Notes under the pieces: generated by a model
The model's database searches: none
Seen by the model: the letters and a program-made list of their open reading frames with translations, nothing else
What the model was told of the DNA's origin: nothing
Program-made: the position numbers and the translations under genes
NCBI GenBank assembly: GCA_965178125.1
Contig: OZ237738.1
Location: 930,001 to 994,000 of the forward strand
Length of the DNA stretch: 64,000 nucleotides
Origin: Bilabrum cf. latius
Taxonomy: Eukaryota
Direction of reading: 5' to 3'
Part shown: piece by piece, positions 2,077 to 53,270 of the stretch
How the letters are laid out: each line of letters begins with the position of its first letter
Numbering within the stretch: position 1 is the stretch's first letter

Positions 2077-2109
<33 letters not shown>

Positions 2110-2554: not shown

Positions 2555-4204
2555 ATGGAGCAAGCAGCAGGTGCACGCTCAGGGGAGGTGATCGATCTCG
2601 TCAGCAGCGACTCAAGCGACAGCGACTCTGGTGAAAGCGATGTCGAGGTTCCCGACCGCCATATGAGCACGATTGCTGCATCGCTATCATTGACCAGCAG
2701 TCGGTAGTGGAGCAGGCGAGAGGCAGGTGGGAAAGGTAGGGCCCGAGATTCAGCGAGCGATCGAGCCGAAGCTGTTCCCACGTCCATCGTGGCGTCGGGA
2801 CTCTCCAGCAGCAGCGCAGTGTTGCCACAAGAAGTGCAATCTTCAATGCAGTCAAGCTCAGGGGTAGATGCAAGCGGCGGCACCGATGCCTCTTTGGGCC
2901 AGAAGCGAGGCAGGCAGGCAGAGGCGAGGTCAGCAGACAGCTAGAGCGGATCGAGTGGAAAGAGACGGCGTGGGCAGGCAGGCGCAATCGGGGCAGGACA
3001 TCGGTGCAGCGTGTGCGGGCAGGCGTTCGGGCGGGCAGGCAGTCTCAGGACGCACATGTCCACGGTGCATCTGGGCGAGCGCAAGCACGAGTGCATGGAG
3101 TGCGGCAAGTCATTTGGGGAGGCAGGCAATCTCAGTAGGCACATGTCCACTGTGCATCTGGGCGAGCGCAAGCACGAGTGCATGGAGTGCGGCAAGTCAT
3201 TTGGTGTGGCAGGCAGTCTCAGGAGGCACATGAGGACAGTGCATCTGGGCGAGCGCAAGCACGAGTGCAGTGTGTGCGGCAAGTCATTCGGTGTGGCAGG
3301 CAATCTCAGGACGCACATGAGGACCGTGCATCTGGGCGAGCGCAAGCACGAGTGCATGGAGTGCGGCAAGTCATTCGGACGGGCAGGCCATCTCAGGACG
3401 CACATGAGGACCGTGCATGTTGGGGAGCGCAAGCACGAGTGCATGGAGTGCGGCAAGTCATTCGGGGAGGCAGGCCATCTCAGGAGGCACATGAGGACTG
3501 TGCATCTGGGCGAGCGGAAGCACGAGTGCGTGGAGTGCGGCAAGTCATTCGGTCTAGCAGGCGATCTCAGGAGGCACATGAGGACCGTGCATCTGGGCGA
3601 GCGCAAGCACGAGTGCATGGTGTGCGGCAAGTCATTCGGACAGGCAGGCAATCTCAGGACGCACATGTCCACTGTGCATCTGGGCGAGCGCAAGCACGAG
3701 TGCATGGTGTGCGGCAAGTCATTCGGGCAGGCGGGCGATCACAGGACGCACATGTCCACTGTGCATCTGGGCGAGCGCAAGCACGGGTGCAGTGTGTGCG
3801 GCAAGTCATTCGGTGTGGCAGGCAATCTCAGGAGACACATGTCCACTGTGCATCTGGGCGAGCGCAAGCACGAGTGCATGGTGTGCGGCAAGTCATTCGG
3901 ACAGGCAGGCAATCTCAGGACGCACATGAGGACTGTGCATCTGGGCGAGCGCAAGCACGAGTGCAGTGTGTGCGGCAAGTCATTCGGACAGGCAGGCCAT
4001 CTCAAGACGCACATGAGGACTGTGCATCTGGGCGAGCGCAAGCACGAGTGCATGGAGTGCGGCAAGTCATTCGGGCTGGCAGGCCATCTCAGGACGCACA
4101 TGAGGACAGTGCACATGGGCGAGCGCAAGCACGAGTGCATGGTGTGCGGCAAGTCATTCGGACAGGCAGGCGATCTCAGGAGGCACACGCGAGGTTGCCA
4201 TTGA
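2555..4204 (+). CDS. C2H2 zinc-finger array protein, copy 2 (14 fingers, N-terminal SIM-like/acidic region)
   Basis: ATG 2555 (MEQAAGARSGEVIDLVSSDSSDSD) is in frame with the finger array through TAGs at 2705 and 2942; ends in TGA. Confidence 0.85.
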
Positions 4205-22628: not shown

Positions 22629-26096
<3,468 letters not shown>

Positions 26097-29300: not shown

Positions 29301-32300
29301 TCTTGCTCCCCATCAATGATACGGAGCTGGCCGGCATGGGTGGCAGCAATGCAACGGCGTCCTCTGACGTCTGCGAAGCCAGCAAACCAAGCGTCAGCGT
29401 ACCGCCCGGCACGGTTCGCACGGTTTGGTGCAGTGCTTCGGTCGAGGCGTGTTTTTCGGCCTCCAATAACACATTCAACGAAAGCAGCCTGCAGCTGAAT
29501 CTTGGAGAGGCCTCTTCGGCACAGTAGCACAAGTACGGTTGCTGGCCAGTGACCGCGTCGTACACTGTTCTGATGCCACGCAGGTACGCAGACCCGTAGC
29601 TAGCAGCCGAAGACCAAGACTACAGAACGTACCCTGCCAGCTACTCTGCCCAATTCGGTCGGAACCCGTGGCTGCCATTGCTTCCCCCTTGCGCGCGGGG
29701 GAAGGAGCTAGGCGATCTTGTGCGGTTTGGCATATCCGAGCAGGCATCGGAGCTAATCGTTCGAAGGCTCGGTCTGGGCGCGCTACCCCCACGATTGCGC
29801 GCTGCAGTGGATCGAGCAGTCAGTCTAGATCTACTTTGTGGTAACAATCCAATATCAAGGCCAGTGGTTGACTGCCTGCCAGGCGAGGAGCGCATCAATC
29901 CGAGCCTGTGCCGCCGCTGCGCCGCCGGTACCTTCATCCTGCCAGGCGACCAGACCTGCTAGGAGTGCCCCGTGGGAGGCGAGTGTTCAGGTGGAGATGT
30001 TGTCGTTGCAAGACCGGGGTACTGGCAGAGCAACGAGGACCCGCTCGACTTGAATTCGTGCCCGCTAGGCGCGTGCTGCATGATGCCTGACGAGGTTGGA
30101 TAGTTCTAGGGGTGCTCGGTGAACAGCACGAACCGATGCGCAGCGGATCGCGATCCAGAATCTGTCCTTTGCGCTCGTTGTCGCACGGGGTTCCAAGCCC
30201 TGGGAGGGAGGTGCTACCCGGAGTGCGGTAGCGACGTGCTGATTCAGCGGCAGTGGGGGGTGGCATGCATGGTAGTATTTCTTTGCATCGCGGCCAATGT
30301 TATGATGATGTATATCGGCCCGGCAGGGCACTCTGGTCTATTCAAGGTGGTGGTTGACCACCTCCAGGTGGCCTTTTTGTTCCTGCAGGGAGTCAGTGCT
30401 TCCATCGCGAGCCTGACTACCGTGCTAGGCCTTTCAGACGATGTTCCAGCTACGCTTCACGCCACTGCATGCCTATTAGGCGACAGAGGCAGCTACTTGG
30501 CCCCTGTGTCACAGGGGCTCGTTGAACTGCTTGCCTTGGGGCTGCTTCCAGTGATGTTTAGCATCGAGGTAGGCTTCCGCAAACTGGTTCGAGTTGGTGT
30601 GCTGTTGTGGTGCCCAACGGCCCGCATGCAGCTGGCCGTGCAAGACCTCCACAAGCATGAGGTATAGCACTAGACTATTTGCTAGAGAGCATTGTGTGGA
30701 ACGGGTAGTTGTTGCCGTCGTAGTTTGCACAGCGATCAAGGCTCCACGGAAGAATCGTCGAATGTGACTCAGTCGGGCAGTGATCAGGTCGGTGTTGCAG
30801 AGATGGAAGCCGCCCCGCGTACGGATGCAGAGGCTGGAACTGCGGCGAAAGCGCCGTTCCAGCCAGAGCTGCAACGCCAGGCGTCAAGACTCCGAGAATC
30901 TGGGGTGCTGGTTATTGCGTCCCCGCGTTTGTCGGCACCAAGCTCCGGGCGAGGAGTGAGGTGGGCATTGCTAGGGACAGACGTAGACATGTCGATACGA
31001 AAAAGATATTTTTGGGCGACGTGGCGCATGCTTCTTGTGGGGTACATGACTGTCATGCTGTCGGGCCTGTCTGTGCTCGACTGCAAAGCCGTTGCTGGCC
31101 AGCGGATTATGCGAAGTGCGCCTGGGATACGTTGCGATACGACCACGCATCGTGCCGTATAGACGGTAGCAGTTGTTCTGGTGGTGATTGTTGGACTACT
31201 ACTCCCAATGGGAATCGTCATTTGGATGTACGAGGAGCTTGGTGGTGAGACAGGCATCGCGGTGGGACGCTTCTAGGGTGCGAGCTTCTGGCTGGCCAGG
31301 ACAATCATGAAGACAAAGGTGGCGCTGTCGCTTCTCCCATGTCTTGGATCGTGCTTGTTCGGTAGCATGGTCAAGACGAGATGGTACCGCAGATACAAAC
31401 ACCGGGGTGGCAGCTATCCAGGCGACAATCTAGTGTTTACGAACGGCGACCCATTCAAGCTGATGGCTTTGCGGGTGAAAGGCAAGATACGAAAGGCCGG
31501 TGCTGAAGACACGAATCATCTTCGAACTAAGAAACGAAGCTCTGTAGCGCCTCTTGACGTAGGCCATGCGCCGACAGTTTGTGATTCAACCCAGGTTCCA
31601 TTACAGGCTGCAGTTGACGGCGGCAGAGGAGTCCAAGTCGCCACCGTGGTGAGACTGTCGTCCGGTAGCGGGTCGCAGCTGTTTCAGAGTCGAGCCATGA
31701 GCGCGTAGCCTTCTGAAATAGGCACACCGCAGTACATTGGTAGGACAGGTACTGGCGGTGCAAGAAACGCGCTTATGGATTCAGCTACTCTGAGTTACCA
31801 ATCAATCCAGAGCGGTTGTCCGGAGCATCAAGCTACGCGACGTCCCACCGGAAATGGGGATCAAAGTCAACAGAGTCTTGAAAACGGTAGTTTCTTGATA
31901 AGTGACACGCCAAGTGTCAGACCAAGCAGCAATGTGGGCCCGGGCTCGGAAACGCAAAGCTCTACGCTTGCACTGCAGCTGCCTACGCCCTAGGCAGCGA
32001 GTCATGGTATGGCGATCCACACGGTGCCGTCCACCAGCAGTACCGGTCATCCTCCGCCGGCTGTCTCGCAAGACTAGTCACGGTCTTCTACTGCCAGCAG
32101 AACAGTTCAAATTGCGGTTGGCACACCATAGTGTGGCCCATCAGCTTCGTCGATGGGCGGCGAAAACGAGATTGGATTGGATAGAGGGACCTCGAGCAGC
32201 AGCGACTCCTCAAAGGTGCTGGCAATTCGAAGCAAGGAAGCGTGTCAAAACGACCCGTCTACTGGCGCACAAACCGCGAGTGCCTCAAGCACTCTGCGTT

Positions 32301-33388
32301 CAACTGCTGGTCAAGGAGGACTGCAGCCCTGCACTTCGATCATGAAATAGCCGCGCCCGCAGCCCACCCGGCCGCGAAATTAGAGGCGCGTAAAGGTGGT
32401 GACCCTGGCAGACATGCAAACTGTTGGTCTGGAGCTTGGAGGCTGGGTCAAGGAGCCCTATCGCCTGTGGTTCGAGGGCCTATACCTCCTGATCAAGGCG
32501 CTCGTTGCTGTGCTCGCGACGGCGCTGCCCTCCAGGATGGCGAGTATCATGGCTGCCGCGCTGCTGCTGCTCTCTTCCAGGCTGATCATTATCATGTGGC
32601 GACCATTCTATTAGCTTCGATCACTCGTAGCGTTTGCTATTAGTTCCATCGGTCTCGTGGCGCTGACCATGGCCATCCTCGGAGTAGAGGCTGTCAAGGA
32701 CGTCCTGCAGCTCGAGGAGCTGGACAGCGGCAGCACGGCAGAGTTTGAGGCGCTGTTGGTGGCCGGCGCCCACAATTTGCGGATTGCAGCGTACGTGTTC
32801 GCTGCCGCGCCGGCACCAGTGCTCTTGTACCTTTCTGTGAAGCAACTCCTTGAGGCTTTCGGGTGCATCGAGGTGGACGAGGAGGCAGAAGCCATGGAAC
32901 GTAGGCAAGACATGGAACTCCAGCGCAAGGCTGAAGAGCTCAGGAGAAGGGCGCAGAGGAAGGTGAGGATGATAAAGGCTGTGAATACATCCACCGCACG
33001 ATCTGATCCGCGTTTTGGGTCGCATGCAGTGTCGGCGGGATGGCAAGGTCACGTGGGTAGCAGCAGCACCAGCAGCTCAAACAGTCCTCCTGCAGGACAA
33101 AGGCGCGGACGATCGTCCACCATAGGAATCGGTCTGCTGATGCCACCCTCAGTCAGCACTCGGTCGCGAAGGGGCAGCGGTGCGTCAACCATGGATGGGT
33201 CGGCGACGTCAGCGACTCAGCAGTTTGATTTTGGGCACGACTAGAGCTATAGTTCCGATTCGCCCTTGCGAAGCAAGACAAAGGAGAGCTCTTGTGACTA
33301 CGGAGGTGATTCATAGGCTGGCACAAACCATCCGCGGCGACACAAGCCGAGTGCAGACTCCCGTCGTATCCGGATGCCACCTGAGTGA
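26350..33388 (+). CDS. Receptor-like membrane protein: signal peptide, PstS-type binding domains, Cys-rich region, multiple TM helices; intron 26539-26641
   Basis: PstS motifs GAGASLP / YESIGSSSG / VDFAGSD / TWDDPRIRALNP / SSGTTEIF, then CxxCP..GxC repeats and hydrophobic helices. Exon 2 is one frame for 6.7 kb with ~22 TAGs (hand count) and no TAA/TGA until 33386. Confidence 0.8.
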
Positions 33389-33588: not shown

Positions 33589-34974
33589 TCACCTGTACCG
33601 CCCGCCGTCCGTGTCGTCCCACAGGTCGCAGTTCTTGCCGACCTTGGCCTTGAGTCCCTCCGTCGCCTCCGTGAGGGCCTTCATCGTGTCCTCGTCCAGC
33701 GGCGTCAGCGCGGCCTTCACGTTGCTGCCAACGTGGGAGGCCTTGGAGGCCCCGAAGAGCACGCTCACCACGCCGGGCCTCTGCAGCGCCCATGCAAGAG
33801 CCACCTCCGGCATGGGCCTGCCTGCCTTCTCACAGATCGCCCTGATGTCCGCGACGGCCTTCCAGAGCTCCTCCTCGCAGCCGGGCTCAGAGTGCCTGCA
33901 CTTGGGGCTCACGTCCTTCCCGAACAGCCGGGAGCGGCTGAGGCCCGGGTTGCACTCGGAGGTCTTCGTGTACTTGCCGCTGAGGAGGCCCTGCTGCAAG
34001 GGAGAGTAGGCCATGATGCCCACTGCTCCGCCCTCTGCCTTATCGCAGGCAGGCTTCACCTCATGCTCGATGGCCCTCCACAGCAGGGAGTAGGGCAGCT
34101 GGTTGGTCACGATGGGCACCCCGCTCTTGACGGCCGCCTCCAGGTCCTTGGGACCGTAGTTGGACACGCCCACCGCCTTGATCTTGCCCTCGTCCTTGAG
34201 CTCCTTGAGGGCGCGGAAGGTCTCCTCGGCGGGCACGTCGTGGTTGGGCCAGTGCACCTGGTACAGGTCGATGCAGCCCTCGGCAAAGTCGCCCAGGTTC
34301 TTCAGCGACCCCTCGCAGGCGGCCTTGACCTCGTCGTACTTGAGGTGGTTGTTGAGCACCTTGGATGCGATCACGACGTCCGATCGCTTCACACCAGACG
34401 CCTTCAGGGCAGCGCCCAGCACCCGCTCGGACTCGCCGCCGCCGTACGCCTCGGCCGTGTCAAAAAAGCTGCAGCAAGGGTCCGAAAACATCAACGAAAC
34501 GTTCCAACATACTACCCGGAAAGCTATGAACGAGCACCATAGTGTGTTACGATCTCTCGAGAGATTGCGAAGATGGCTGGCAACGAGGGGTTTGGCGCGT
34601 CACAATCAAGATCGGACGAATACTGGGTGACCTTTGACGAGCAAGCGGATGAACTGGGCACCAACCCTCATAATACGATCCACACATATATTTCTATTAC
34701 ATGCGTAGCCCAGACTAGCATAGAATCAGCGCAAGGGCTAGCTAAACACGGCAAACGTACCTCAACTCTCTGTGCCTCACTTGATACCGGCATCGAGAAC
34801 CGCCTATACAATCTCGTTGTACGCTTCTTGGCTTTGCTTTGCGTACGTTTCTGTGGGATCCGCCAGCTGCCAGCTTCCGAAGCCCAACACAGTGATCTCC
34901 TTGTCGATACCGGCCAACTTGATCTTGGGAATCGTGGGCTTGCTTTCGCCTGAACCTCCTGCTGCTGCTGCCAT
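33589..34974 (-). CDS. Aldo/keto reductase; intron 34469-34780
   Basis: GT-AG splicing rebuilds AGINFFDTAEAYG. Other motifs: LGFGSWQL, IDLYQVHWP, AYSPLQQGLL. In-frame TAG at 34804-34806 in exon 1; ends in TGA. Confidence 0.9.
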
Positions 34975-37400: not shown

Positions 37401-38190
37401 ATGGCAGAGACCATAGGAGAGAACTTCAATAAAGATCTGACGTACGAGGATGTTCGAGCTCGTATGGAAGAGTTCGTAAAAGGTGGGGTAATCAGTCTGT
37501 TGCAGTTGACGTGTTCAAATTCACCATCGCTATTGTTGTTAACATCTCAAGAGCGCGATTATTGCTATCACAGAACGGGATTGGGAGCAGTTTCATACCC
37601 CGCGCAATTTGCTTTTGGCTTTTCTCGGTGAAGCTGGCGAGCTTGCTGAAATCTTCCAGTGGGCAGGCGAAGTCGCGCCTGGTTTGCCAGCATTCGACGA
37701 GTCCAAGAAAGTCCACGTGGGAGAAGAGTTGGCTGATTGTAGCATTTATCTGGTGCGGATCGCTCAGCAGTGCCAGATCAACTTGCCGGCGGCAATTTTG
37801 CGAAAGATGGAGAGGAACGCAATGAAGTATCCCGCAGACAAAGTGCGAGGTTCTTCCCAAAAGTACACGGCTTACAAGACAGCAGCAGCCGCAGCTGACG
37901 CCGAAAAGGCTGCAGCGAGGGCAGCATCTAACCTGTCGCCGAGGAAGTCTGCCGCACCAGCCGAGAGCGAGGCGAGTAGCACCCCTCGGCGCCTCGACTT
38001 CGGCAGTCGCAGCTCTAGCGGCGTTGCAACGTCCCAGACAGCAGCACCACCCTCTCTGCAACCAGCAAGCTAGTTGCACTGGCCATCTGTCGCGTTAGGT
38101 TTCGGCGCTGCGCTGCTGAGTGTTGGACTGGGAGTGCTTGCGACCAAGGCCTTGAGCGGCCGTTCGGGCAGCGTCGCGACAAGATCCTGA
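37401..38190 (+). CDS. DCTPP1: dCTP pyrophosphatase (MazG-like, DCTPP1 family); intron 37483-37573
   Basis: Splicing gives FVKERDWEQFHTPRNLLLAFLGEAGELAEIFQW...EELADC...KMERNAMKYP. TAG at 38071 is followed by a hydrophobic tail and TGA at 38188. Confidence 0.85.
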
Positions 38191-38276: not shown

Positions 38277-39962
38277 TCACGCGCTACCGTCCATGAGGAT
38301 CTGCGCCACCTTGGCCCTCGTCTCCATCACTGCCATGGGGTCCTTCTCGAAGTTCGTCGGGCCCTTCACCACCTCCTGTGCCAGCTGCGCCACCATGACA
38401 GGGTTCTTCTTGGCAGCCAGCTTCAGCAGCTCCACGTCCTCAAGCCCGTCCCTAATGGTCTCGTACCGGATGGAAGAGATCGGGCCGTCCACACCGGGCA
38501 TGATGAACGATCCGTCGCCGTTCGCGAATACGTCCTGCCTGGGGTACACGATAAAATTGGCGGGATCCCACTGCAGCAGCCTGGGGTCGTTCTTGACGTT
38601 GCCGTCGGCCGGTGTGAGCGGGCGGGCGAACCCGTGTGGCAGCGGGTACGTCACGCCTACATCGTTCACGTAGCCGCTTACGAAAGACGGATATGGGCCC
38701 CAGTTGTGCCACAAATCCACGGCATAGTACAGCATGCCAGTAGCATGATTCTGCCACGACAGCCAGAAGAGCTGCCTGGCCTGCGCCAGCGGTCGCTCAA
38801 TGAACGTGTTCAGGTACCCCTCCTGATGCGGCTCGATGCACCAGTAGTTCCAGTACTCGTGGCCTGCATCCACCCACTCCTGCCGGAGCGTCTCGTTATG
38901 GAACTGATAGGAAATGACCCAGATGTCCACCGGGAGGTCAAGAGGGATGCGGGGCCAGTTGAGCACGGCCATCGTGCGCACCTCCGGATAGGCCTTCTTC
39001 ATCGCTCCGAACAGCTGCCTAATTTGCGGGATGCACGAGATCGGATTCTCGTCGAAGCCGTACGCGATCAGCTTGTCCGACAGCCCCTTCGCCCGCATCG
39101 CCTCCACAGTGGGCTTCACCAGGGCCAGCATCGCGTCCACGTACGCCTGCGAGTAGTTCGCGCACGACCCCTGCACACCGCCCGTGTGCACGCGGCGAGG
39201 GGCCGGCTCTCCAGTGAGGGCCTGGGGCACGCTCTGCACGTCGATGAGGTTGAGGTGCCGGGCGCCAAGGGAAGCAAGCAGCTCTAGCGTGTTTGCATGT
39301 CTAGGATGGGCCCGATAAATCATATCTCCCGGCATGCGATGGTCCTGTGTGAAGCGAGCCCACTGCTCCTGGACCGGCATGGGGGTTACGCTGGAGCCGT
39401 TGCCGTACAGCTTGTTGATATCGCCGCCCTCCAAAGCAAGTTCAAACGAGTTGCCGTATGCAGCAGGGTCCGAAGTTCGGGGGAGGAGAGCCGACAATAC
39501 ATGAACTTCGATCGAGATCGGTGAAACTCCAGCAGCTGTCACGTTCAACCGGTACGACCCTGGCTTTGTCGAGGGCTTGACATAAAAAGAAAGCCACAGA
39601 GCCTACGCAGCATTCTCCATTGCGGTATACTCATAGCTTCCATGGGATTCAGCTATCACCGCAGGATCCAACAAGGGCTCTGCATGCCACCCCGAGTTGC
39701 TGCCACTGTACCTGGTAGAGTACTACGTATAGACAAATCCAACCCTTGACACTGTGATCTCTAGCGGATCCAACTACCACGCAAAGTCTACAGTGGTCGG
39801 CCCCGACGTCTGCGCGTCAAGCATTATCTGCAAGGGCTCGGTTTCATTTAGCAGAACAAACGTTGTGATCGTTGACCCGATACCAATGTCAGCGCATGTT
39901 GAGTTCAGATTATACTTCAGCAAAGTAGGAATGACACAAGCCGCTAGGACTGTAGATGCCAT
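38277..39962 (-). CDS. Secreted DUF4091/GH123-like glycoside hydrolase, paralog 1
   Basis: Signal-like MASTVLAACVIP; motifs YGFDE, YWNYWC, GMLYY, NGDG and SSIRYETIRDGLEDVELL. One frame through TAGs at 39774, 39723 and 39603; ends in TGA. Confidence 0.75.
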
Positions 39963-40142
39963 TGTTGAAGGCTAAGTGTGAGGGAATGTAGTGTACCGGT
40001 AGCCGCAGATCGCCGGCGCCCCCGGGGCCCCGCCGCGACACTTTGCACAAGCAGAAAAAGCAAATATCATTTTCAACTGCACCGCCAGGACAAGCACGAT
40101 CACATCAGTGGCAGATGGTCTAACCAGAGACAGAGCTAGACC

Positions 40143-41819
40143 TCAGCCATCTATGAGGATCTGCGCCACCTTGGCCCTCGTCTCCATCACTGCAACGGGG
40201 TCCTTCTCGAAGTTCGTCGGGCCCTTCACCACCTCTTGCGCCAGCTGCGCCACCATGGCAGGGTTCTTCTTGGCAGCCAGCTTCAGCAGCTCCACGTCCT
40301 CAAGCCCGTCCCTAATGGTCTCGTACCGGATGGAGGAGATCGGGCCGTCCACGCCGGGCATGATGAACGATCCGTCGCCGTTCGCGAAGATGTCCTGACG
40401 CGGATACCAGATGAAGTTCGTCGGGTCCCACTGCAGCAGCCTGGGGTCGTTCTTGACGTTGCCGTCGGCCGGTGTGAGCGGGCGGGCGAACCCGTGCGGC
40501 AGCGGGTACGTCACGCCTACATCGTTCACGTAGCCGCTCACGAATGACGGATACGGGCCCCAGTTCCTCCATAGGTCAACGGCATAGTACAGCATGCCAG
40601 TGGCGTGGGTCTGCCACGACAGCCAGAAGAGCTGCCTGGCCTGCGCCAGCGGTCGCTCGATGAACGTGTTCAGATAGTCTCCATCTGATGGCTCGATGCA
40701 CCAGTACTGCCAGTACTCGTGACCCGCTGCCACCCACCGCTGCCGCATGGTTTCGTTGTGCAGCTAGTACTGCAGGACCCAGATGTCCACCGGGAGATCG
40801 TCAGGCATATCGGGCCAGTTGAGCACGGCCATCGTGCGCACCTCCGGATAGGCCTTCTTCATCGCTCCGAACAGCTGCCTCACCTAGGGCTCGCACGAGA
40901 TCGGATTCTCGTCGAAGCCGTACGCGATCAGCTTGTCCGACAGCCCCTTCGCCCGCATCGCCTCCACAGTGGGCTTCACCAGGGCCAGCATCGCGTCCAC
41001 GTACGCCTGCGAGTAGTTCGCGCACGACCCCTGCACGCCTCCCGTGTGCACGCGGCGGGGGGCCGGCTCTCCAGTGAGGGCCTGGGGCACGCTCTGCACG
41101 TCGATGAGGTTGAGGTGCCGGGCGCCAAGGGAAGCCAGTAGTTCCAGAGTGGCGGGGTCCCTGGGGTGAGACTGGTAGATCAAGTCTCCCGGCATGCGAT
41201 GGTCCTGGGTGAAGCGAGCCCACTGCTCCTGGACCGGCATGGGGGTTACGCTGGAGCCGTTGCCGTACAGCCTGTTGATGTCTCCGCCCTCTATACTTAT
41301 CTCGAATGAGTTACCGTACGCAGCAGGGTCCGAAGTTTGGGGAAGGAGGGCTGGAAGAACGACAACGTTGATTTGTATAGCTCCGACTCCATCTGCAAAC
41401 AGTTGCACAGGGTATTTCCCAGGCTATGCATTCGCCCATGGCTTAAATGATATCCAGAGAGCCTGGGGAGCACCAGACATAACTAGAAACGAGTAGTTGC
41501 CGCCGTTCGGTAGCGTGGATTCGGGCTCCAGCAAAGGCTCAGCATGCCATCCGGAGTTGCTACCGCCGTACCGCGATGTGTACTGCGTGTACACGAAGCC
41601 AACTCTAGCAACCTACATATCAAAGGCCTCGTTTGGCGCAGTGAAGTTCACAGTGGCAGTCCCAGTGGCAGATGGCTCAAACAGCAGCTAAACTGGCTCG
41701 GTTTCGTTCTAAAGGGCGTAAACGGTCGTTTCTGCTCCGATTCCGATGCCTGCACACGTATCATTGAGATGATATTTTAACAAAGTAGGAAGAACGCAAG
41801 CAGCCGCTAGAGCCACCAT
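40143..41819 (-). CDS. Secreted DUF4091/GH123-like glycoside hydrolase, paralog 2
   Basis: Colinear with paralog 1. In-frame TAGs at 40764, 40884 and 41688 align with Gln codons of paralog 1; ends in TGA. Confidence 0.75.
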
Positions 41820-41976: not shown

Positions 41977-44900
41977 ATGCAGATCTCTTCAGATACTCTT
42001 ACCAAGAGCGTGCGCGATGCTTTGGACGCAAGACTGAAGGTGGGAGAGTCGATGACGCGCGAACTTCAACTGCCGTTCCCTCTTCGATTTCACATGTTCT
42101 CGAACGATTCTGCCCGCCCTACTGTGTCTGCTGTCTTTTGCGCAGGGAGAATAGGCACCTTTTGAATACTTAGTCCTTAAGCTGCGACAGGCTTCTGTTG
42201 ACGGGACTCCTGCGCGCCTCCTGAAGGCCTTGACTGTATGTGCTCCCACGCTCGCTCAAGAGCCGGAGGTGTTCAAGCCAATCATCGATGAAGTTTTGAA
42301 TTCTCCAATGGCGCATTTGGTTGAAGGGGTCAGACACGCTAACACAGCGCAGTCGTTCGAGTAGGCGGCCCAAAAGGCCCGAGAAGCAATGCGTCCATTG
42401 CTGAACTTCCTTGCCGGCTTGGTATCTGTCAACTCCGCGCTGCTTCCCTCGGTATTCCACAGCATAGCGCAAAAACTGTTACCGCGAGAAGGAGATGGAT
42501 CAGAAGACAGCGATGATGAAGACAGTGAGGACGACGAGGATGAAAGCAATGCCAGCAACTCTGGTGCTGCCAACCCCGGCTCTGCTGCTCCTCATCTCAC
42601 CGTGCGGCGATTACGGCGGAGAGCACGGCCATGGGAGCGAGAGGAACCTCGAATTGAAGGACTATACGGCTGCACGCACAGCTTGCTGATGCTGGTCCCG
42701 ACTGGACTACCCGCCCTGTTCGAGGCCCTGCGCGCCTCCTTTCCTCATCGGCGGCACGGCGTGCACACTCACCGCGCGTACACCCGGCGCCTCTTGCGGC
42801 TTGCTCAAGCTCTTCCAGCACTTGAAGATAGACTGCTATCGATTGTGATAGACCGCATGGTAGACATAGACGTTGAAATTTCGATTCGGGACGTGGACGA
42901 GCAGGAGGAGGCCGCACGGGCTCGAGCTGGGTCTCACGACGGAACCGACGGCGGCGTCGCCGTCGCGCACATCGAGACGCTTGCAGACAAGCTCGACGTC
43001 ATGATCGAACTTGTGTTTCAGTACCTAGACGAGAAATGCGGGGCCGATGCAGGCGTGGCTGGAGTTGGATGCGCTGAGCAACACCTTCCCAACTCTGCCG
43101 TGGATCTGCCGGGTGCCTCGCAGCCCGGTGGTGCCGTGGTACCCGCCGGGGGAAGGCATTCGTCCCATTCTGGTAGCAGCACCAAGGGGGCGCAGGGCAA
43201 CCAGAAAGAGCTGCTGACTCGCCGCAGGAAGCATGCGCTTGCCCTCATCCTGGCAGTGTTTGAGCGGTCAGTCCTTCCGACGTACAAGAGCCGGTTTACG
43301 CAGTTTATCGTCTTTTATCTCTGCCGACTCTCCGCTTCCATGGCAGACACGTTTACTGGCAGGATGATCAACAATTTGAGGAACAGGACGCTTCCCATGG
43401 TGATCAGGGTAGCCTGCGCCAGCTACGTGGGTTCTTTCCTCGCTCGGGCCAAGTTCGTGGATGACTCCACGGTACGGTCTGCCCTGTTCTATCTGCTGGG
43501 TTACGCGCATAGGTTCTTGGACGAATCGGAATAGAGGCAGCTGGCGGAGTCTGCGCGCGCTGCCAATGCAACGGGCGGCGTGGGAGGCAGAATGAGAATC
43601 GGGCCTGACGGGGAATCCATTCGGGTGTCGCCGGGCGCGCGCGGAGGCAGTGGCCAGCGGCTCTACAGCCCGACCGTCTTCCTCGCGGTATGCCAAGCTT
43701 GCTTTTATATCGTTGCGTTCAGGGCGCGATCGCTGGCGCAGAGTCCAGAAGCTCTTGATTTTCTTCGTCAGCTGCGGTTCGGTCGTGTGGTGTCGAGCAG
43801 AGAGGACCCCCTGCGGAGGTGCCTCGATTCTGTGAGCCGAGAGTTCGTCCGTGTTGCCATCAATCTCCAGCTAGTCACCGACCGCGAAGTTAGGCAGAGC
43901 GTGGCAGGGCCGTCCTTGCTGGTTCTTCCCGAGGACTCTCTTGTGTCCGAAGACGATGATGACGATGACGATGAGGACAGCGACGGTGGAAGCTCAGGCT
44001 CTGGCGAAGGGAGTGACAGCGAGGATTCGGGGTCTGAAAACGATTCCTCTGATGACGAAGGTGAGGACGAAGGAAATAACAAGGCACATGGTTAGATCCA
44101 CCCTAGCAGGATCCAGCCCTAGAATGCCCAGCAAAGATCGGGTGTGCATGCTATGGGTCCGTAGCGGCAGGCCAGCATCACATCATCGCCTATCGTCCCG
44201 CTCGACATGGATGGTACCAGCACGGGATCGGGCGTGTCCAGACGGAGTGGCAGCTCAGGATCGGCTGGACAGGACGTCGCAGGCGGCGCGCTCATGCTTG
44301 GCCACGACGACCACCGGAGCGTGTCGGCTGCCCCGGCCCCTGGCAAAGATTCGGATATCGCCGTAAGGCTCATCTAGTTCAGGAGCGATAGTGGTAGCAG
44401 CATGGCCGCATCATCACGGGCTGAACTGCGCACTGAGCGATCCACCACGCCGACGGGCCGCGAGGCGGTGCGCAGCCATGGGGGCAACGGCGCCAGGTTG
44501 GGTATTGGGGGTAAGGGAGGCGCACCCGCACCGTCCTCGTCCTCGTCCATGGCATCGCAGACCTAGTCGCTTGAGCAGCTGAAAGAGTACTTCCCATTCG
44601 ATCCCTTCCGGCTGCGTCGATCCAGGCATTTCCTTAAGGGTCTCTACAGGAAGTGGGAAGACGTGGAGCTCAGGGACGAGGACCTGCCAGAGGACCTGAG
44701 GGAGGCGCTGTATGCCGGCATGGAGGATGCTGCCTCCCATGCGTACGCTTCGGATGAGGGCGGGATGGATGACGAGGACGAGGACGGGGAAGAGGACGAA
44801 ACGCCTCACCGGGGCGCGATGCATCGAAGAGGGTCGATCGGCAGCGCATCTAGCGCGGGAAGCGCTCGATCGAAGGGCCAGCACAGCCGGCGCATCCGGT

Positions 44901-46336
44901 CAGAAAGCATGGCAGGTGGCGTGGGGTTCTCGTTGCAGGAGGACGAGGAAGACCTGTCGGAATCCAGCGGAGGCACCCCTGTGGCTGCACGAGCTGCAGC
45001 AAAGGCGCTTGCAGAGGCACGCGGCAAGGGAACAGGACATGCCAGCGCCAGTGGCAGCGCTCGAGCAGACCGCCGCGCCGGCTCCCACGCGTCTCACAGC
45101 GGCGCCGAGAGCCTGTCAGCAGCGGAGCTGTCCGCCGACATGGCCAAGGAGGCGGAGGGCCTCGGCAGGGTGGGTCGCACCCTCGACCAGCTGGGTCACT
45201 CCCAGGCCACGTACACTGAAGCCATGCGGTCGAGGATTGCCGAGATGGGCGGGCTCGAGCACGTGGATCCTCTTAGCGACCTGGACTCCGGCGTCGCATC
45301 GGGGTCGGCCGCCGAAGACATGAACGGGGGCTCTCAAGGGCGTGCCGCGGCGAGCAGTGGGGGCGGCGAGGTCATGTACGAGCTAGGTGGGGCGGGTGTG
45401 ACTGTGGACGAGCTGGGGCTGGGGTCTCACTCCGCAGACAAGGCGGCCATGCTGAGTGCTCACTTAGAGGGCGTGACTGGGGGTGTCTTGCGGGCCGATG
45501 CGCGGGCTGGATAGGCTAGTGGCCGCTCCGCAGGCGGTGGGGCCACGAACAGGCAGCGCGTGGAGGAGCGGATGGCGAGGGCGGCGCGCAGGCAGCAGGT
45601 GGTGCGGCAGGCTCTCGCCGAGGAGGACTCGGATGGACGGAGCCTTGAGCCATCGCCGCTGCTAGGCCCCGCTGGTTCACCGCTGTCCATCCCGGCGGGG
45701 TCTCCGGGCCTGAAGGCCGGCTCAGCGGCGGCTTCGAGACACGGTGGCGGCGGGGGAGCTCTGCCCCCATTGAGGATCGAGGCGGCAGCAGCCGGCATGG
45801 CGAGGACAGAGGAGGGCGAAAGCGGATACCGCCGGGCGAGTATGACGGGCGCGTGGCCCTCTGGTGCGGCTGGGAGTAGCTCAGGAGCGATGGCATCGAG
45901 CAAGAACGGCGCGGTAAGCTCTGGTGCTGCTGCGGGCACCGCGTCATCGTCGGCTCATGTTGCAGCTGGAATGGGTTTGCATGTACCCGGCCGCATGGAG
46001 GCGGATGACGAGCTTGCGGTAGGGCTGAACCAAGGACACGCCTACCATGCCAGCAGCAAGGCTTCGGTCAAGTCGCACATCTCCGAGCCGCCGCCCATGC
46101 ATGAAATGGCGTGGCTGCTCTCAGCTTCCACCGTGGGAGCGAGCACAGGTGCGACGAGCAGGCACACGTCCGGTGCTGGAATTGATGGATAGGCTGTAAG
46201 GGTGCCGTCAAAGGCTGGTACAAAGAGGCCGAGGCCGGTGCCTGAAGCGAAAGCTAAGGAGAACGATGGAGTTTCGGACGCAGCAGGCAGATCGCCCGAG
46301 ATCAGGCAGAAGCAGAAGAGAGCTAGGAAGGATTGA
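41977..46336 (+). CDS. RRN3: RNA polymerase I transcription initiation factor RRN3; intron ~42040-42144; start uncertain
   Basis: Motifs DRMVDIDVEI, ADKLDVMI, LPTYKSRFTQFIVFY, ASYVGSFLARAKFV, CQACFYIVAFR and YFPFDPFRLRRSRHFLKGLYRKW lie in one frame across ~10 TAGs; ends in TGA. Confidence 0.85.
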
Positions 46337-46823
46337 TGCGTGACAATGGGCCGCTGATTGGATGACCTGATACACCCGTAGTCTTGCATCTTTGCATTGT
46401 CTTGGCTCAAAGAATCACCACATACAGCTCTGTTCATGTGTGACTCGGAGGCATCCCCAGGTCCGATCGGAGCAAAACACCTCGTGCAGCCGTTGCACGG
46501 CACACCTTGTCGAGTCTAAGGCAAAGTTGAGGCGCTTGAGGTGAGTCAAGGCCGGAACATAGCAGTGTTTTCGTTTGAGATCCATGCCCAGGACAATGAG
46601 TACAGCTGAACCCCTGCATGCGTCCGGTTCTTACACTGTCACAATGACGCGCCTTTTATGCCGAATTTCGACTTGAAGTAGCTATTATTGCACCCAAAAA
46701 AGCCTTACATAAAATTTATATGGTTATACATAGCTTGTCTGGCGGAATGGATCCTCGATGCACTTCTATCGTGATCTTTTTGGAATGGCACTGTGGATCC
46801 TTCTTCGCATACACCCTCACAGG

Positions 46824-49157
46824 ATGCAACTCACCACATCAGCAGCTCAAGTTTTGGCGGCTGGAGCCTTTATGGGCAGCATAGCTTTTGCTACGACGTG
46901 CGATATGGCAGGAGACTGGCTATTCGTTCCTGGGCCCGGGGTGGACAGCTCGAAGTTCTACTCAGCGGTTGACATCCCCGGGCCAGGGCATACCGGCAGC
47001 TTCAACTTCACCTTCGGGATTAGGCACGGCCCGCAAACGGTGCCAGGGTACATCGATGCAGACAACGCTGTCACCATTAAAGTTACCGACACGGACACGA
47101 TCAACGGGCAATTTGCTTCCAACTGCAGCTACATCAACTGGCAGCCGAGCAGCGGGAAGCAGCAGTACAATTTCGGCGCCGCGTGGTGCAGGGCATGGAC
47201 TCCTGGCTGCAACTACGTCAAGCCACCATACATGAAGGGCTTCGCTTTTTGGGGCACCTTTGGCGACTACATGGTGCTGCAGCAGGCCCCCCAGCAGGCC
47301 GCCGTGTACGGCATGGTCTTCGGATCGGACAAGCCTCAGGTGCAGGTCGAGGTGCAGGGGGACGATGGCACCAACTACATGGTAGACGCGGAGATCAACA
47401 CTGTGAACCAGCCGTTCGGACCTGGGTTCGAGTACCCATGGCCCTACCCAGGCCCTTTCACAACGTGGAAGGCCCTGCTGAAACCTCACGCGGCCGGTGG
47501 CAACTTCCGGATCACCTCCCGCTGCCTCAACTGCGTGGACAGAGACCCCATGTTCAACGCAGCTAACATCTCCAACGTGACCTTCGGAGACGTGTGGTAC
47601 TGCAGCGGGCAGTCCAACATGTGGCTCCCTGTGGGCCACAGCTTCGAGCGCAACAACACGGTAGATGCCATTCACGAGGGCCAGTACAACAACATCCGGA
47701 TCATGGCCGGCAACTCCGGAGACCAGTCCGATGGCATCTTTAACCCGTGGATGACCGCTGCACAGTCTGTTGTGGACCCCAAGGGCGGGGTGAACTATCC
47801 CCTCTTCCAATTCGGGGCAGCGTGCTGGTACTTTGCGCAGAAACTCGCCGACGAGCTGCAGAAGGCGGGCAAGTCCGTCCCCATCGGCCTGGCCGACACG
47901 GCTGTTGGCGGGCAGAGGATCGAGGAGTACATGGACAACACCACCATCAGCCAGTGCACGGACCGACTCGGGGAGAACATCCCCCAGTGGGACGGGCCCC
48001 TGTACGGCAAGCTGGTTGTGCCCTTCCTGGACATGACCGTCAAGGGGTTCCTCTGGTATCAGGGAGAGAACAACATGGGTGGCACCAAGGGCAACTCCAT
48101 CGCCAACGTGGGGTACGGCTGCGAGATGGTGCATCTCGTGTCTGCCTGGCGCAAGAACTGGAGCAAGGTGCCGGGCACCACGGACCCGGACGCTCCCTTT
48201 GGCATCGTCACCCTAGCATCGAGCGGCTCCGAGGGCGGGCCAAACATGGGTGCCATGCGCTGGGCGCAGACGGGGAATTACGGGGTGTTGCCCAACCCGC
48301 TCATCCCCAACAGCTTTGTGGCGCAGGCCTACGACCTGGACGACCCCTGGGGCCCCAATGCCGGACCGTGCTTCGAGTGGCAGTGCTGCGAGGCCTGGCA
48401 CGCCAAGCAGAACATGACCGCGTGCAACATTGGCACCAACAACAACCCCAAGATGTGCGACCTCGCATGCGCCGGCGCCGCTGACACTACCCCAGTTATG
48501 GGCGGGATCCACCCGCGGGACAAGAAGCCTGTGGGTGACCGCCTTGGGCTCGCTGCGTACAACACCGTGTACGGTGGACAGGGGCCAACCACTGGACCCA
48601 CGCTGTCGGGCTGCGCTGTGCAGGATGGCTCGCTGGTGGTGCAGTTCAACCAGACGATGCTAAAGGGAGACACCGTGATCATCCAGCCGTACAGCCAGAC
48701 CCTCAACATGTCCTACCTCGAGGTCATGACGGACCCCACCATCTTCTGCGTGGAGGTGCGCAAGAGGAACGAGTCATGCCGCTCCGACTGCGAGCTGTAC
48801 TGCCCAACCTGGGCGGGCGGGTCCTCCATCACCAACAACTCGGCGCTCAACGGACACGACTCCCAGGGCTGGCAGCCCCTCAACATCTCCATGGCCGGAA
48901 GCTCGGCCATCAAGGCAGACCTGTCGCCTCTGGGAGAGCAGCCACCTGTCGCCGTGAGGTACGCGTGGGGCCTGTCCGAGTGCTGCAATAAGACTGACCC
49001 CGACCTCTACGTCAAGTACCCCTGCGGACCCGCCCCTTGCCCGCTCATGCTGGGCTCCAAGTCATTCCCGGCCAACCCCTTCATCGCCAAGATCAAGGAC
49101 GGCAAGTGCGAGTGCATCGCGCCTCAGACCTGTGATGGGTCCGTGGGACATGCTTGA
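46824..49157 (+). CDS. Sialate O-acetylesterase-like (SASA/SGNH) secreted protein
   Basis: Motifs FGDVWYCSGQSNM, KGFLWYQGENN, IHPRDKKPVGDRL and PVAVRYAW; signal peptide; uninterrupted ORF ending in TGA. Confidence 0.88.
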   Translation: MQLTTSAAQVLAAGAFMGSIAFATTCDMAGDWLFVPGPGVDSSKFYSAVDIPGPGHTGSFNFTFGIRHGPQTVPGYIDADNAVTIKVTDTDTINGQFASNCSYINWQPSSGKQQYNFGAAWCRAWTPGCNYVKPPYMKGFAFWGTFGDYMVLQQAPQQAAVYGMVFGSDKPQVQVEVQGDDGTNYMVDAEINTVNQPFGPGFEYPWPYPGPFTTWKALLKPHAAGGNFRITSRCLNCVDRDPMFNAANISNVTFGDVWYCSGQSNMWLPVGHSFERNNTVDAIHEGQYNNIRIMAGNSGDQSDGIFNPWMTAAQSVVDPKGGVNYPLFQFGAACWYFAQKLADELQKAGKSVPIGLADTAVGGQRIEEYMDNTTISQCTDRLGENIPQWDGPLYGKLVVPFLDMTVKGFLWYQGENNMGGTKGNSIANVGYGCEMVHLVSAWRKNWSKVPGTTDPDAPFGIVTLASSGSEGGPNMGAMRWAQTGNYGVLPNPLIPNSFVAQAYDLDDPWGPNAGPCFEWQCCEAWHAKQNMTACNIGTNNNPKMCDLACAGAADTTPVMGGIHPRDKKPVGDRLGLAAYNTVYGGQGPTTGPTLSGCAVQDGSLVVQFNQTMLKGDTVIIQPYSQTLNMSYLEVMTDPTIFCVEVRKRNESCRSDCELYCPTWAGGSSITNNSALNGHDSQGWQPLNISMAGSSAIKADLSPLGEQPPVAVRYAWGLSECCNKTDPDLYVKYPCGPAPCPLMLGSKSFPANPFIAKIKDGKCECIAPQTCDGSVGHA

Positions 49158-52300: not shown

Positions 52301-53270
52301 CGCTCCTTTGGACCTCGTGCAAGGGTGGGCGCGCGACATGGATGCGTCTGCGCGGCCTGTCCCTGCGGACATGAGATCTCGGCGTGCCGGGTGGTCCGCG
52401 CCGCGGCAATGCGGCGGATGCATCCAGCCACTCAGATGTACCGTCGGAAGAGAGCCCTAGGACTGGCCATCCTCTCAATCTGTCCATGCTCGCAGCCAAA
52501 GAGGGGTCCACCCTCCCGAGCTCCTCCTCCGGGGCGCGACCCCCGGCGTAATTCGACTCGCCCCCTGCAGCCGAGGAGCTATCTCGCAGCCACTCGCCCC
52601 GCTAGGCCCGTCCAGCGGCATACCCTTCTACAATTACCCACGTCCAATCGATTCCAGGGGACGGCAGCGAGTGCAGCGTTCTCCAATGGTGCGGCAGGAA
52701 CTGCCTTGCGTTCAATGCCAAAGTGACCGCTGCAAGGCAAGCGTGGGTGCTACTCCGGTTGTGTGGGGGAGACCGGGGTATAACGGCCTCCTACAATCCC
52801 AAAAGAAGCTATCTAGACAATGGTGAGCGGAGCTACTCGGCCCGAAGGACATCCCGGCCGAGCTACCGGGCGTTGGGATGTGGCAGGCCATTCAATGCAC
52901 GACTGAGCCCTGCCGCTGTTGCAACTAGCTGCTCTCGAGTTGATGCATTGCTACACCAATGCGGAAACGACAAAGAAGCCACTCGTTTGGCCGATTCATC
53001 GGAACTGCTACGCACACAATCTAGCAATGTCTGGATCGCGAGCATTCTAGCGCGATTCGCTTGGACAAGGGTTTCAACCTGTACTGTTAGTTTCGATCTC
53101 AATAAAAAATGCTTCGAATGATCCGTCTCGGTTCGAAGCACTGCCAAAGAGGAATTCTGCAGCGTTGCAGTCGATCTTGGGACGGAATTCGAGCTTGGCA
53201 AAGGTATCAGTCGGCCTCCAGAAAGTAACGCAGTCATCACGACAATAGCTAGACGTATACCGAGGTACAT
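49329..53270 (-). CDS. Large signal-anchored protein with a GT-A glycosyltransferase-like domain (~1310 aa)
   Basis: Seven track ORFs share one frame and the gaps contain only TAG. Motifs MYLGIRLAIVVMTALL, AVTLALNARQFL, WVIVEG, SSDGTSEWL and LLQLDADELW (DxD). Ends TAG-TAA at 49334-49329. Confidence 0.6.

What the first reader, a model, noticed from the sequence alone, without database searches (positions are those of the whole stretch)
38277..41819. Paralog pair gives five reciprocal TAG/Gln codon alignments
Seen on the minus strand, paralog 1 vs paralog 2: CAA 39024 / TAG 40884 (SCIPQ/SCEP*); CAG 38904 / TAG 40764 (YQFHN/Y*LHN); TAG 39603 / CAG 41463 (*ALW/QALW); TAG 39723 / CAG 41583 (VYT*Y/VYTQY); CAG 39828 / TAG 41688 (EPLQ/EPV*). 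The TAGs occur in both copies and act like synonymous changes, which assigns Gln rather than Leu, Glu or Tyr. One counter-example elsewhere: TAG at 2942 and 11763 aligns with TTG at 6277 in a low-complexity region.
Basis: seen in the sequence. Interest (0 to 1): 0.85.

Follow-up and report, generated by a model that had tools for sequence, protein, structure and literature searches.

The report
TAG read as glutamine in eukaryote
Two neighbouring copies of a sugar-cleaving enzyme gene, and most other genes around them, carry the usual stop signal TAG inside intact reading frames at places where relatives have glutamine, so this GC-rich eukaryote most likely reads TAG as glutamine, a rare but already known kind of genetic-code change.

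Summary
All five TAG/CAR codon pairs sit at the stated coordinates, at a constant offset of 1860 bases between two tandem GH123-type genes. So 5 of 9 TAG columns pair with Gln, against at most 5% for any other amino acid (P<=3e-5).

The copies are not decaying. dN/dS is 0.23, and neither frame holds a TAA or an internal TGA. Assemblies that carry GT..AG-spliced forms of two neighbouring genes also carry both copies with TAG unchanged.

In 37 distant homologues, three TAG columns are conserved Gln. Log-odds are Q +15.1 bits, next best R -4.5, L -15.4.

Across 17 ORFs (14,707 codons) the frame holds 88 TAG, 0 TAA and 0 TGA, while TAA occurs 39-40 times in each off-frame. Sixteen of 17 genes end in TGA.

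The window is nuclear DNA of a eukaryote (RRN3, C2H2 arrays, introns).

This is a known kind of code. The lineage, the tRNA and the release factor could not be examined.

The parts
38277..39962 (-). GH123-type glycoside hydrolase, paralogue 1. ATG at 39960-39962, TGA stop at 38277-38279, 561 codons, 3 in-frame TAG.
   Evidence: ORF under TAG=Q. Pfam GH123_cat E 2.9e-18. Homologues cover 95-99% of it. RNA-type contig X5 record 10 covers 39382-39962 with no differences.
40143..41819 (-). GH123-type glycoside hydrolase, paralogue 2. ATG at 41817-41819, TGA stop at 40143-40145, 558 codons, 6 in-frame TAG.
   Evidence: ORF under TAG=Q. Pfam GH123_cat E 6.8e-18. 79% identical to paralogue 1 (447 of 563). 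Contigs of X5, X6 and X7 cover 40046-41687.
39603..39605 (-). TAG in paralogue 1 (AQALW), facing CAG at 41463.
   Evidence: Q in 25 of 37 homologues and in PDB 8k2j.
39723..39725 (-). TAG in paralogue 1 (VYTQY), facing CAG at 41583.
   Evidence: The column is variable in homologues (K 9, N 6, Q 2 of 37).
39774..39776 (-). TAG in paralogue 1 (FAWQL), facing CCA (Pro) at 41634.
40764..40766 (-). TAG in paralogue 2 (YQLHN), facing CAG at 38904.
   Evidence: Homologues have E 17, Q 8 of 37. Unchanged in X5, X6 and X7 contigs.
40884..40886 (-). TAG in paralogue 2 (SCEPQ), facing CAA at 39024.
   Evidence: Q in 16 of 37 homologues. Unchanged in X5 and X6 contigs.
41424..41426 (-). TAG in paralogue 2 (ANAQP), facing AAG (Lys) at 39564.
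   Evidence: Unchanged in X5 record 15.
41613..41615 (-). TAG in paralogue 2 (DMQVA), facing ACA (Thr) at 39753.
41688..41690 (-). TAG in paralogue 2 (EPVQ), facing CAG at 39828.
   Evidence: Q in 26 of 37 homologues, which is 26 of the 28 without a gap.
41709..41711 (-). TAG in paralogue 2 (ALQNE), facing CTA (Leu) at 39849.
2705..2707 (+). TAG conserved in all three zinc-finger paralogues (also at 6040 and 11526).
2942..2944 (+).
42040..42145 (+). GT..AG intron (106 bases) upstream of the RRN3 ORF. It is spliced out in contigs of X5, X6 and X7 and present in the X1 contig.
   Evidence: tables 5 and 8; splice sites read.
37483..37573 (+). GT..AG intron (91 bases) of the gene downstream of paralogue 1. 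It is spliced out in X5 and X6.
   Evidence: table 5.
42230..46336 (+). RRN3 gene with 9 in-frame TAG.
   Evidence: Pfam RRN3 E 4.8e-82. In the 70%-identical orthologue P0073, TAG435 faces Q and TAG45 faces L.

Best explanation
The window is nuclear DNA of a GC-rich (about 60%) eukaryote whose cytoplasmic translation reads UAG as glutamine. UGA is the working terminator, and UAA is kept out of reading frames, so it is either a stop or unassigned.

The two tandem GH123-type genes are functional and under purifying selection. CAG>TAG and TAG>CAG changes between them are therefore silent C/T transitions. That is why TAG in one copy faces CAR in the other, in both directions.

Shown here: TAG is frequent in intact, constrained frames that are apparently transcribed; it sits at conserved Gln positions; TAA and TGA are excluded from frames.

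Inferred from what is known of other UAG-only codes (passages of PMC11687900): a tRNA-Gln with anticodon CUA, which would not read UAA, and a release factor eRF1 that no longer ends translation at UAG. Neither gene lies in the window.
For: The five TAG/CAR columns are confirmed.

The TAG partner is Gln in 5 of 9 cells, against at most 0.05 for any other residue.

dN/dS is 0.23 over 556 codons and 0.18 over the C-terminal 396 codons (sd 76.8 of S 281.7 against nd 53.2 of N 900.3). Frame 0 holds 0 TAA and 0 internal TGA in either copy, while the off-frames hold 7-15 TGA.

Outgroup test: Q stands at the TAG columns in 25, 26 and 16 of 37 homologues. Log-odds are Q +15.1 bits and next best R -4.5. 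The same score recovers the true residue for Q, L, E, Y, S, K and W control columns. PDB 8k2j has Q at the AQALW column.

Window-wide, 17 ORFs (14,707 codons) hold in frame TAG 88, TAA 0 and TGA 0. The off-frames hold TAG 99/108, TAA 40/39 and TGA 264/186. From the A/G ratios of other codon pairs (0.14-0.69), 9-30 in-frame TAA would be expected if TAA were Gln; none is seen. Table 6 lengthens no long ORF except one, by 11 codons.

Stops: 16 TGA and 1 TAA in 17 genes.

Assemblies X5, X6 and X7 (two studies) join 42037>42144, and X5 and X6 also join 37480>37572, with GT..AG ends. The X1 contig runs through unspliced. The same assemblies hold paralogue 1 (39382-39962) and paralogue 2 (40046-41687) with no change at the TAGs.

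In the RRN3 orthologue P0073 (70% identity), Q faces TAG435. P0073 ends exactly before a Gln (CAA in the window) that is Q in 54 of 55 family members. P0087 (96% identity) ends at the window's TAG622.
Against: Four of the 9 TAG columns in the pair face non-Gln codons: CTA, CCA, ACA and AAG.

Three TAG pairings are with Leu: CTA in the pair, TTG in the zinc-finger trio and L in the RRN3 orthologue at TAG45.

TAG96 of the TrmH-like gene faces His in two solved homologues. At the YQ column, homologues prefer E (17) over Q (8).

The RNA nature of X5-X7 is the tool's guess, and X5 is labelled 'probably DNA'. The spliced joints are the only sign of cDNA.

Alignment of TAG with ancestral Gln is also what CAG>TAG nonsense mutations would give, so the amino-acid assignment depends on the frames really being translated.

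No tRNA(CUA), no eRF1 and no peptide was seen. The only tRNA in the window is Ile-GAU. TAA as a terminator rests on one orphan ORF whose last sense codon is itself TAG.
Confidence: 0.85

Rival explanations
1. The code is the common TAR=Gln code (NCBI table 6, as in ulvophycean green algae, hexamitids, many ciliates and Amoeboaphelidium). UGA is the only stop, and TAA is a legal Gln codon that merely happens to be unused in this GC-rich stretch.
For: 16 of 17 genes end in TGA. The single TAA 'stop' is followed by a TGA 11 codons later. Ulvophytes use CAG>CAA>TAG>TAA with TGA as the only stop (passages of PMC2984419). Weak leads towards green plants: the nearest Atlas cluster of the aldo-keto reductase is mostly Chlorophyta, and the best solved relatives of the cathepsin are plant papain-like proteases.
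Against: There are 0 in-frame TAA in 14,707 codons against 88 TAG, while TAA occurs 39-40 times in each off-frame. With the CAA/CAG ratio of 0.33, about 30 would be expected; even at a ratio of 0.1, P(0)=1.5e-4.
Confidence: 0.08
2. Both GH123 copies are pseudogenes. The TAGs are nonsense mutations made by C>T transitions in CAG codons, which is why they face Gln.
For: TAG and CAG differ by one transition. Alignment with ancestral Gln is expected under this reading too.
Against: dN/dS is 0.23, with no frameshift over 555 aligned codons and no TAA or TGA in frame in either copy. Four TAGs face codons that differ at two or three positions, so TAG has persisted through long divergence. The same TAG excess is found in RRN3, the zinc-finger genes and all long ORFs, with 88 TAG against 0 TAA/TGA. 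Both copies are present in assemblies that hold spliced forms of the neighbouring genes.
Confidence: 0.02
3. TAG is a sense codon but stands for another residue: Leu as in the rhizarian exLh and some phyllopharyngean ciliates, Ser as in Scotinosphaera, or Glu, Tyr or Lys as in some ciliates.
For: Three TAG pairings with Leu. E outnumbers Q at one column. These codes exist.
Against: Log-odds over the 9 TAG columns against 37 homologues are Q +15.1, S -5.9, E -7.7, K -8.6, L -15.4 and Y -23.2 bits. In the pair, no L, E, K or Y codon faces Gln (0 of 102, 55, 31 and 51 cells) and only 3 of 60 S cells do, whereas TAG does in 5 of 9.
Confidence: 0.03
4. UAG is ambiguous. It is read through as Gln inside genes by a suppressor or near-cognate tRNA-Gln, but still ends translation in some contexts, as in context-dependent codes.
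For: TAG is absent from five enzyme-type genes (0 of 79 Gln-type codons, against 89 of 588 elsewhere; P=1e-5; the grouping was chosen after seeing the data). The orphan ORF 49329-53405 ends ...TAG TAA.
Against: None of 17 genes needs TAG as its stop. In-frame TAG is about as frequent as off-frame TAG (88 against 99 and 108), so there is no general selection against it.
Confidence: 0.05

Closest known systems
UAG-only to Gln nuclear codes: Iotanema spirale (Fornicata); Hartmannula sinica, Trochilia petrani and Protocruzia tuzeti (ciliates). These match NCBI table 15 in form.
   Same: UAG is sense and aligned with Gln, and UAA is not sense (PMC5304391 abstract; PMC11687900 abstract and Discussion). 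The window shows 88 in-frame TAG and 0 TAA.
   Different: Those organisms end most genes with UAA (86.9-98.3% of genes in the phyllopharyngeans; 'primary termination codon' in Iotanema). Here 16 of 17 genes end in TGA and at most one in TAA. The DNA is about 60% G+C, and the genes have GT..AG introns and long low-complexity tracts, unlike ciliate macronuclear DNA.
TAR to Gln code of ulvophycean green algae (Dasycladales, Trentepohliales, Cladophorales, Blastophysa).
   Same: [quoted passage not shown] Two weak leads point to the green lineage.
   Different: TAA is used as Gln there. Here there is none in 14,707 codons. The lineage of the window is not established: the best named GH123 relative is from a choanoflagellate.
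UAG to Leu (rhizarian exLh, three phyllopharyngean MAGs) and UAG to Ser (Scotinosphaera).
   Same: UAG alone is reassigned and UAA is retained.
   Different: The residue differs. Leu and Ser score -15.4 and -5.9 bits here, against +15.1 for Gln.
Code 15 in crAss-like and other gut phages.
   Same: TAG is read as Gln (PMC9523058; search listing and start of abstract only).
   Different: Those are phage genomes. This window carries RRN3, C2H2 zinc-finger arrays, a RING protein and spliced introns.

Membership tests
UAG-only to Gln nuclear code (table 15 in form) | Many in-frame TAG in genes whose frames are otherwise intact and have homologues | tested here: met
   88 TAG in 14,707 codons of 17 ORFs. 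The ORFs include GH123 x2, RRN3, TrmH-like and C2H2 genes with Pfam hits.
UAG-only to Gln nuclear code (table 15 in form) | TAG falls at positions where relatives have conserved Gln | tested here: met
   Q in 25, 26 and 16 of 37 homologues at three columns; log-odds Q +15.1 bits. 8k2j has Q. RRN3 orthologue: Q at TAG435 but L at TAG45.
UAG-only to Gln nuclear code (table 15 in form) | TAA is not used as a sense codon | tested here: met
   0 in frame against 40 and 39 in the off-frames. Table 6 does not lengthen the ORFs. This covers the window only.
UAG-only to Gln nuclear code (table 15 in form) | TAA serves as a terminator | tested here: inconclusive
   1 of 17 genes, an orphan ORF without homologues. 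A TGA follows 11 codons later.
UAG-only to Gln nuclear code (table 15 in form) | A tRNA-Gln with anticodon CUA, and an eRF1 altered in stop-codon recognition | not testable with these tools
   No genome is held. The only tRNA in the window is Ile-GAU.
UAG-only to Gln nuclear code (table 15 in form) | Gln found in peptides at UAG positions | not testable with these tools
   No proteome data. PMC11687900 notes the same limit for published cases.
TAR to Gln code (NCBI table 6) | Both TAA and TAG occur in frame at Gln positions | tested here: not met
   TAG 88, TAA 0. P(0)<=1.5e-4 even at a TAA/TAG ratio of 0.1.
TAR to Gln code (NCBI table 6) | TGA is the only terminator | tested here: inconclusive
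   16 of 17 are TGA. The 17th is TAA, preceded by TAG and followed by TGA after 11 codons.
Glycoside hydrolase family 123 | Catalytic domain matches the family profile above its curated cut-off | tested here: met
   PF13320 scores 66.7 and 65.5 bits against a cut-off of 23.1. Only profile positions 126-323 of 324 are matched.
Glycoside hydrolase family 123 | Adjacent Asp-Glu pair of the substrate-assisted mechanism (that this pair is catalytic is recalled, not from a call) | tested here: met
   'YGFDENP' in both copies aligns with 'HLADEPV' of the solved beta-N-acetylgalactosaminidase 8k2j.
Glycoside hydrolase family 123 | beta-N-acetylgalactosaminidase activity | not testable with these tools
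   No assay was possible.

The most novel reading that the evidence does not exclude
The window comes from a eukaryotic lineage in which the change has not been described. It would be a GC-rich, intron-bearing, non-ciliate organism that reassigned UAG alone to Gln while using UGA, not UAA, as almost its only terminator. UAA would be nearly or wholly unused, perhaps unassigned. This stop-codon set-up differs from every published UAG-only to Gln case that I read. TAG also appears to be avoided in some genes (0 of 79 Gln-type codons in five enzyme genes), as if decoding were still costly.
Probability: 0.3. Interest if true: 0.65.

Novelty: new member of a known kind. Interest (0 to 1): 0.5.

Why it matters
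Nuclear codes in which UAG and UAA have different meanings are rare. They are used to argue about how the two codons are coupled, through wobble of a UUA-anticodon tRNA and through eRF1 (PMC11687900 Introduction and Discussion).

A GC-rich organism that reads UAG as Gln, ends genes with UGA and keeps UAA out of frames would be a further, differently configured case. It would be a natural test of codon-capture against ambiguous-intermediate routes.

There is also a practical consequence. Gene callers using the standard code cut these genes at every TAG. Two public predicted proteins of close relatives end exactly at such positions, so annotation of this genome and its relatives needs the right table.

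Tried and rejected
Whole genome: none is held for the window. A search for tRNA(CUA) and eRF1 and a genome-wide paralogue survey were therefore impossible.

Earlier notes of the scan: nothing by place, words or sequence.

Homologue searches for the two ORFs richest in TAG returned nothing: 49329-53405 with 19 TAG, and 26549-33388 with 22 TAG searched among shorter proteins. These 41 TAGs remain untested against relatives.

The RRN3 representative search gave only two usable TAG columns, because the other seven TAGs lie outside the conserved part.

Sequencing runs: no RNA holder is listed on record. The RNA nature of X5-X7 is inferred from spliced joints only. Parts of paralogue 1 (38606-39307) have no cover in X5-X7. 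This is reported here only; the two copies are near-identical there, so contigs may be placed on paralogue 2.

Scan of metagenome contigs for the DNA of orthologue P0073: only a 39%-identical relative came back (L001), which was not used.

Lineage. The Atlas gave a Chlorophyta-rich cluster for the aldo-keto reductase (score 0.96) and nothing clear for the SASA esterase (scores <=0.87). PDB ranking of the cathepsin favours plant enzymes. The best named GH123 relative is from Salpingoeca urceolata. These leads conflict, so the lineage is left open.

RNA editing of UAG to CAG is rejected for the covered sites. Contigs of the splice-bearing assemblies carry TAG unchanged at 39603, 39723, 39774, 40764, 40884, 41424 and 41613.

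Phage or giant-virus origin is rejected: the window has RRN3, C2H2 arrays and spliced introns.

Literature: five searches turned up no paper describing a GC-rich eukaryote with UAG-only=Gln and UGA as the main stop. Supplementary tables of the papers read were not available and may hold codon-usage data that bear on this.
Full report
WHAT IS THERE

The stretch 38277-41819 holds two head-to-tail genes on the minus strand. Under table 11 they break into pieces. With TAG read as a residue they become single ORFs.

From their probable ATGs (39962 and 41819) they encode 561 and 558 residues, and both end in TGA. Both match the catalytic domain of glycoside hydrolase family 123 (E 2.9e-18 and 6.8e-18). 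They are 79% identical (447 of 563). The best solved relative is a beta-N-acetylgalactosaminidase (8k2j, E 5.9e-21), and the adjacent Asp-Glu of 'GFDENP' aligns with its 'ADE'.

CHECK OF THE OBSERVATION

The counter-example in the zinc-finger genes (TAG 2942 and 11763 against TTG 6277) is also real.

All lie in the N-terminal 160 codons, where the copies are only 51% identical. So 5 of 9 TAG columns face Gln.

That is what a Gln codon should do. Seven columns at about 0.5 identity and two at about 0.9 give an expectation near 5.3. It is far above any other residue class in the same alignment, where the partner is Gln in 0 to 5% of cells (binomial P<=3.3e-5).

ARE THE COPIES ALIVE?

A TAG facing CAG is also what a C>T nonsense mutation in a dying gene would give. 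The five columns alone therefore do not decide the matter. Three things do.

- Constraint. dN/dS is 0.23 over 556 codons and 0.18 over the C-terminal 396.
- Frame integrity. There is no indel in 555 aligned codons. Frame 0 holds no TAA and no internal TGA in either copy, while the other two frames hold 7-15 TGA and 2-4 TAA.
- Transcripts. Contigs of three runs from two studies (X5, X6, X7) join 42037 to 42144, and X5 and X6 also join 37480 to 37572. Both skipped parts are GT..AG introns of 106 and 91 bases. The contig of run X1 passes through unspliced. These assemblies therefore hold processed transcripts.

The same three assemblies hold paralogue 2 (40046-41687), and X5 and X6 hold the unique N-terminal part of paralogue 1 (39382-39962). 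There is no base difference at TAGs 39603, 39723, 39774, 40764, 40884, 41424 and 41613.

The tool itself calls the RNA nature of these runs a guess, and labels X5 'probably DNA'. This point is good but not final.

WHICH RESIDUE?

Thirty-seven homologues at about 30-37% identity were aligned with both copies. Counts below are out of 37.

| TAG column | Homologue residues |
|---|---|
| AQALW | Q 25 |
| EPxQ | Q 26 (of the 28 without a gap) |
| PQ | Q 16 |
| YQ | E 17, Q 8 |
| other five | variable |

Summed log-odds over the nine columns are Q +15.1, R -4.5, S -5.9, H -6.7, E -7.7, K -8.6, L -15.4 and Y -23.2 bits. The same score recovers the right residue for control sets of Q, L, E, Y, S, K and W columns. 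The solved homologue 8k2j has Q at the AQALW column.

Results from other genes are mixed.

- In the RRN3 gene, a 70%-identical orthologue (P0073) has Q at TAG435 but L at TAG45.
- In the TrmH-like gene, TAG96 faces His in two solved relatives.
- In the MraW-like exon, TAG263 lies at the edge of the alignable part.
- In the zinc-finger genes, one TAG is conserved in all three copies. Two identical repeat units carry TAG where the three nearest other units carry CAG.

The three pairings with Leu are the main data against Gln. They are outweighed by the conserved-column evidence.

THE WIDER PICTURE

The window is eukaryotic nuclear DNA of about 60% G+C. Genes found:

- RRN3;
- four C2H2 zinc-finger genes;
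- a RING protein;
- a TrmH-like methylase;
- an aldo-keto reductase;
- a cathepsin L with its I29 propeptide;
- a SASA esterase;
- an O-methyltransferase;
- an MraW-like gene.

Stop-triplet counts in 17 ORFs, 14,707 codons:

| Frame | TAG | TAA | TGA |
|---|---|---|---|
| in frame | 88 | 0 | 0 |
| +1 | 99 | 40 | 264 |
| +2 | 108 | 39 | 186 |

TAG is thus as common in frame as out of frame, whereas TAA behaves like TGA. Given the A/G ratios of other codon pairs (CAA/CAG 0.33; range 0.14-0.69), 9-30 in-frame TAA would be expected if TAA were Gln. Reading TAA as Gln (table 6) lengthens no long ORF except one, by 11 codons.

Sixteen of 17 genes end in TGA. The one TAA belongs to an ORF with no homologues, whose last sense codon is itself TAG.

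The code therefore has the form TAG=Gln, TGA=stop, TAA=not sense.

MECHANISM

Shown: the codon-level pattern above.

Inferred from published UAG-only cases: a tRNA-Gln with anticodon CUA, which reads UAG but not UAA, and a release factor that no longer acts at UAG (PMC11687900 Introduction and Discussion). Neither can be looked for, since no genome is held and the window has only a tRNA-Ile(GAU).

COMPARISON WITH WHAT IS KNOWN

UAG-only to Gln is published for Iotanema spirale (PMC5304391 abstract) and for Hartmannula sinica, Trochilia petrani and Protocruzia tuzeti (PMC11687900 abstract and Discussion). In those organisms UAA is the main stop. Here it is UGA.

The TAR to Gln code of ulvophycean algae shares the TGA-only termination and the codon order CAG>CAA>TAG, but it does use TAA (PMC2984419 and PMC8271138 passages). 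Amoeboaphelidium is reported to read both TAG and TAA as Gln (PMC6299283 passage; PMC5304391 passage).

The lineage of the window is unresolved, because the leads conflict. I therefore cannot say whether this organism's code is already in print. Five literature searches found no matching description.

VERDICT

The finding is a new member of a known kind of code change, with an unusual stop-codon set-up that would raise its interest if the lineage proves new.

Noticed in passing
window 38277-41819: The two GH123 copies are a mosaic. In the N-terminal 160 codons synonymous sites are saturated (pS 0.75). In the rest dS is 0.22-0.57, with 90-base windows of 97-100% identity. This suggests gene conversion of the catalytic part, or a much older N-terminal divergence.
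   Followed up: partly
window 38279-38472: A contig in X1, and also in X5, matches this stretch with 18 differences and then runs on into unlike sequence beyond the stop codon. At least one more GH123 paralogue probably exists elsewhere in the genome (tables 3, 7, 8).
   Followed up: no
window 33592-34494, 46758-49154, 53665-55277, 62109-62978: Five enzyme-type gene segments hold no TAG: aldo-keto reductase, SASA esterase, the two cathepsin exons and the O-methyltransferase. That is 0 of 79 Gln-type codons, against 89 of 588 in the other genes (Fisher P=1e-5; the grouping was chosen after seeing the data). Per-gene TAG share ranges from 0 to 28%.
   Followed up: partly
window 22092-22164 (-): The only tRNA gene is tRNA-Ile with anticodon GAU (58 bits in Rfam). 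From recall, eukaryotic nuclei usually use AAU (read as IAU) for Ile, so a G34 Ile tRNA is unusual, or may be of organellar origin.
   Followed up: no
window 1-12700: Tandem array of at least four C2H2 zinc-finger genes (1-867, 2405-4204, 5734-7278, 11226-12620). Their 29-residue repeat units are near-identical, 40 units in all, and the spacers are repeated, as shown by similar ORFs at 1532-2323 and 9777-11078.
   Followed up: partly
window 49329-53405 (-): This 1358-codon ORF has 19 TAG, no Pfam match and no homologue. It ends ...TAG TAA, and a TGA follows 11 codons later. It is the only ORF not ending in TGA.
   Followed up: partly
window 42230-46336; proteins P0073, P0087: Public predicted proteins of close relatives stop at TAG-type positions. 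P0087 (96% identity) ends at the window's TAG622. P0073 (70% identity) ends just before a Gln that is invariant in 54 of 55 RRN3 relatives. Standard-code gene calling appears to truncate genes of this group.
   Followed up: partly
window 24001-26000: G+C rises to 70% here. The ORF 22398-26096 encodes a long (Ala-Gly)n run and other low-complexity tracts ahead of a RING-H2-like end.
   Followed up: no
window 26549-33388 (+): A 2279-codon single-exon ORF with 22 TAG. It has an N-terminal phosphate-binding-protein-like domain (PF12849, E 2.4e-17), followed by what appear on reading the translation to be Cys-rich and hydrophobic stretches. No homologue was found for residues 500-2279 among shorter proteins.
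   Followed up: partly
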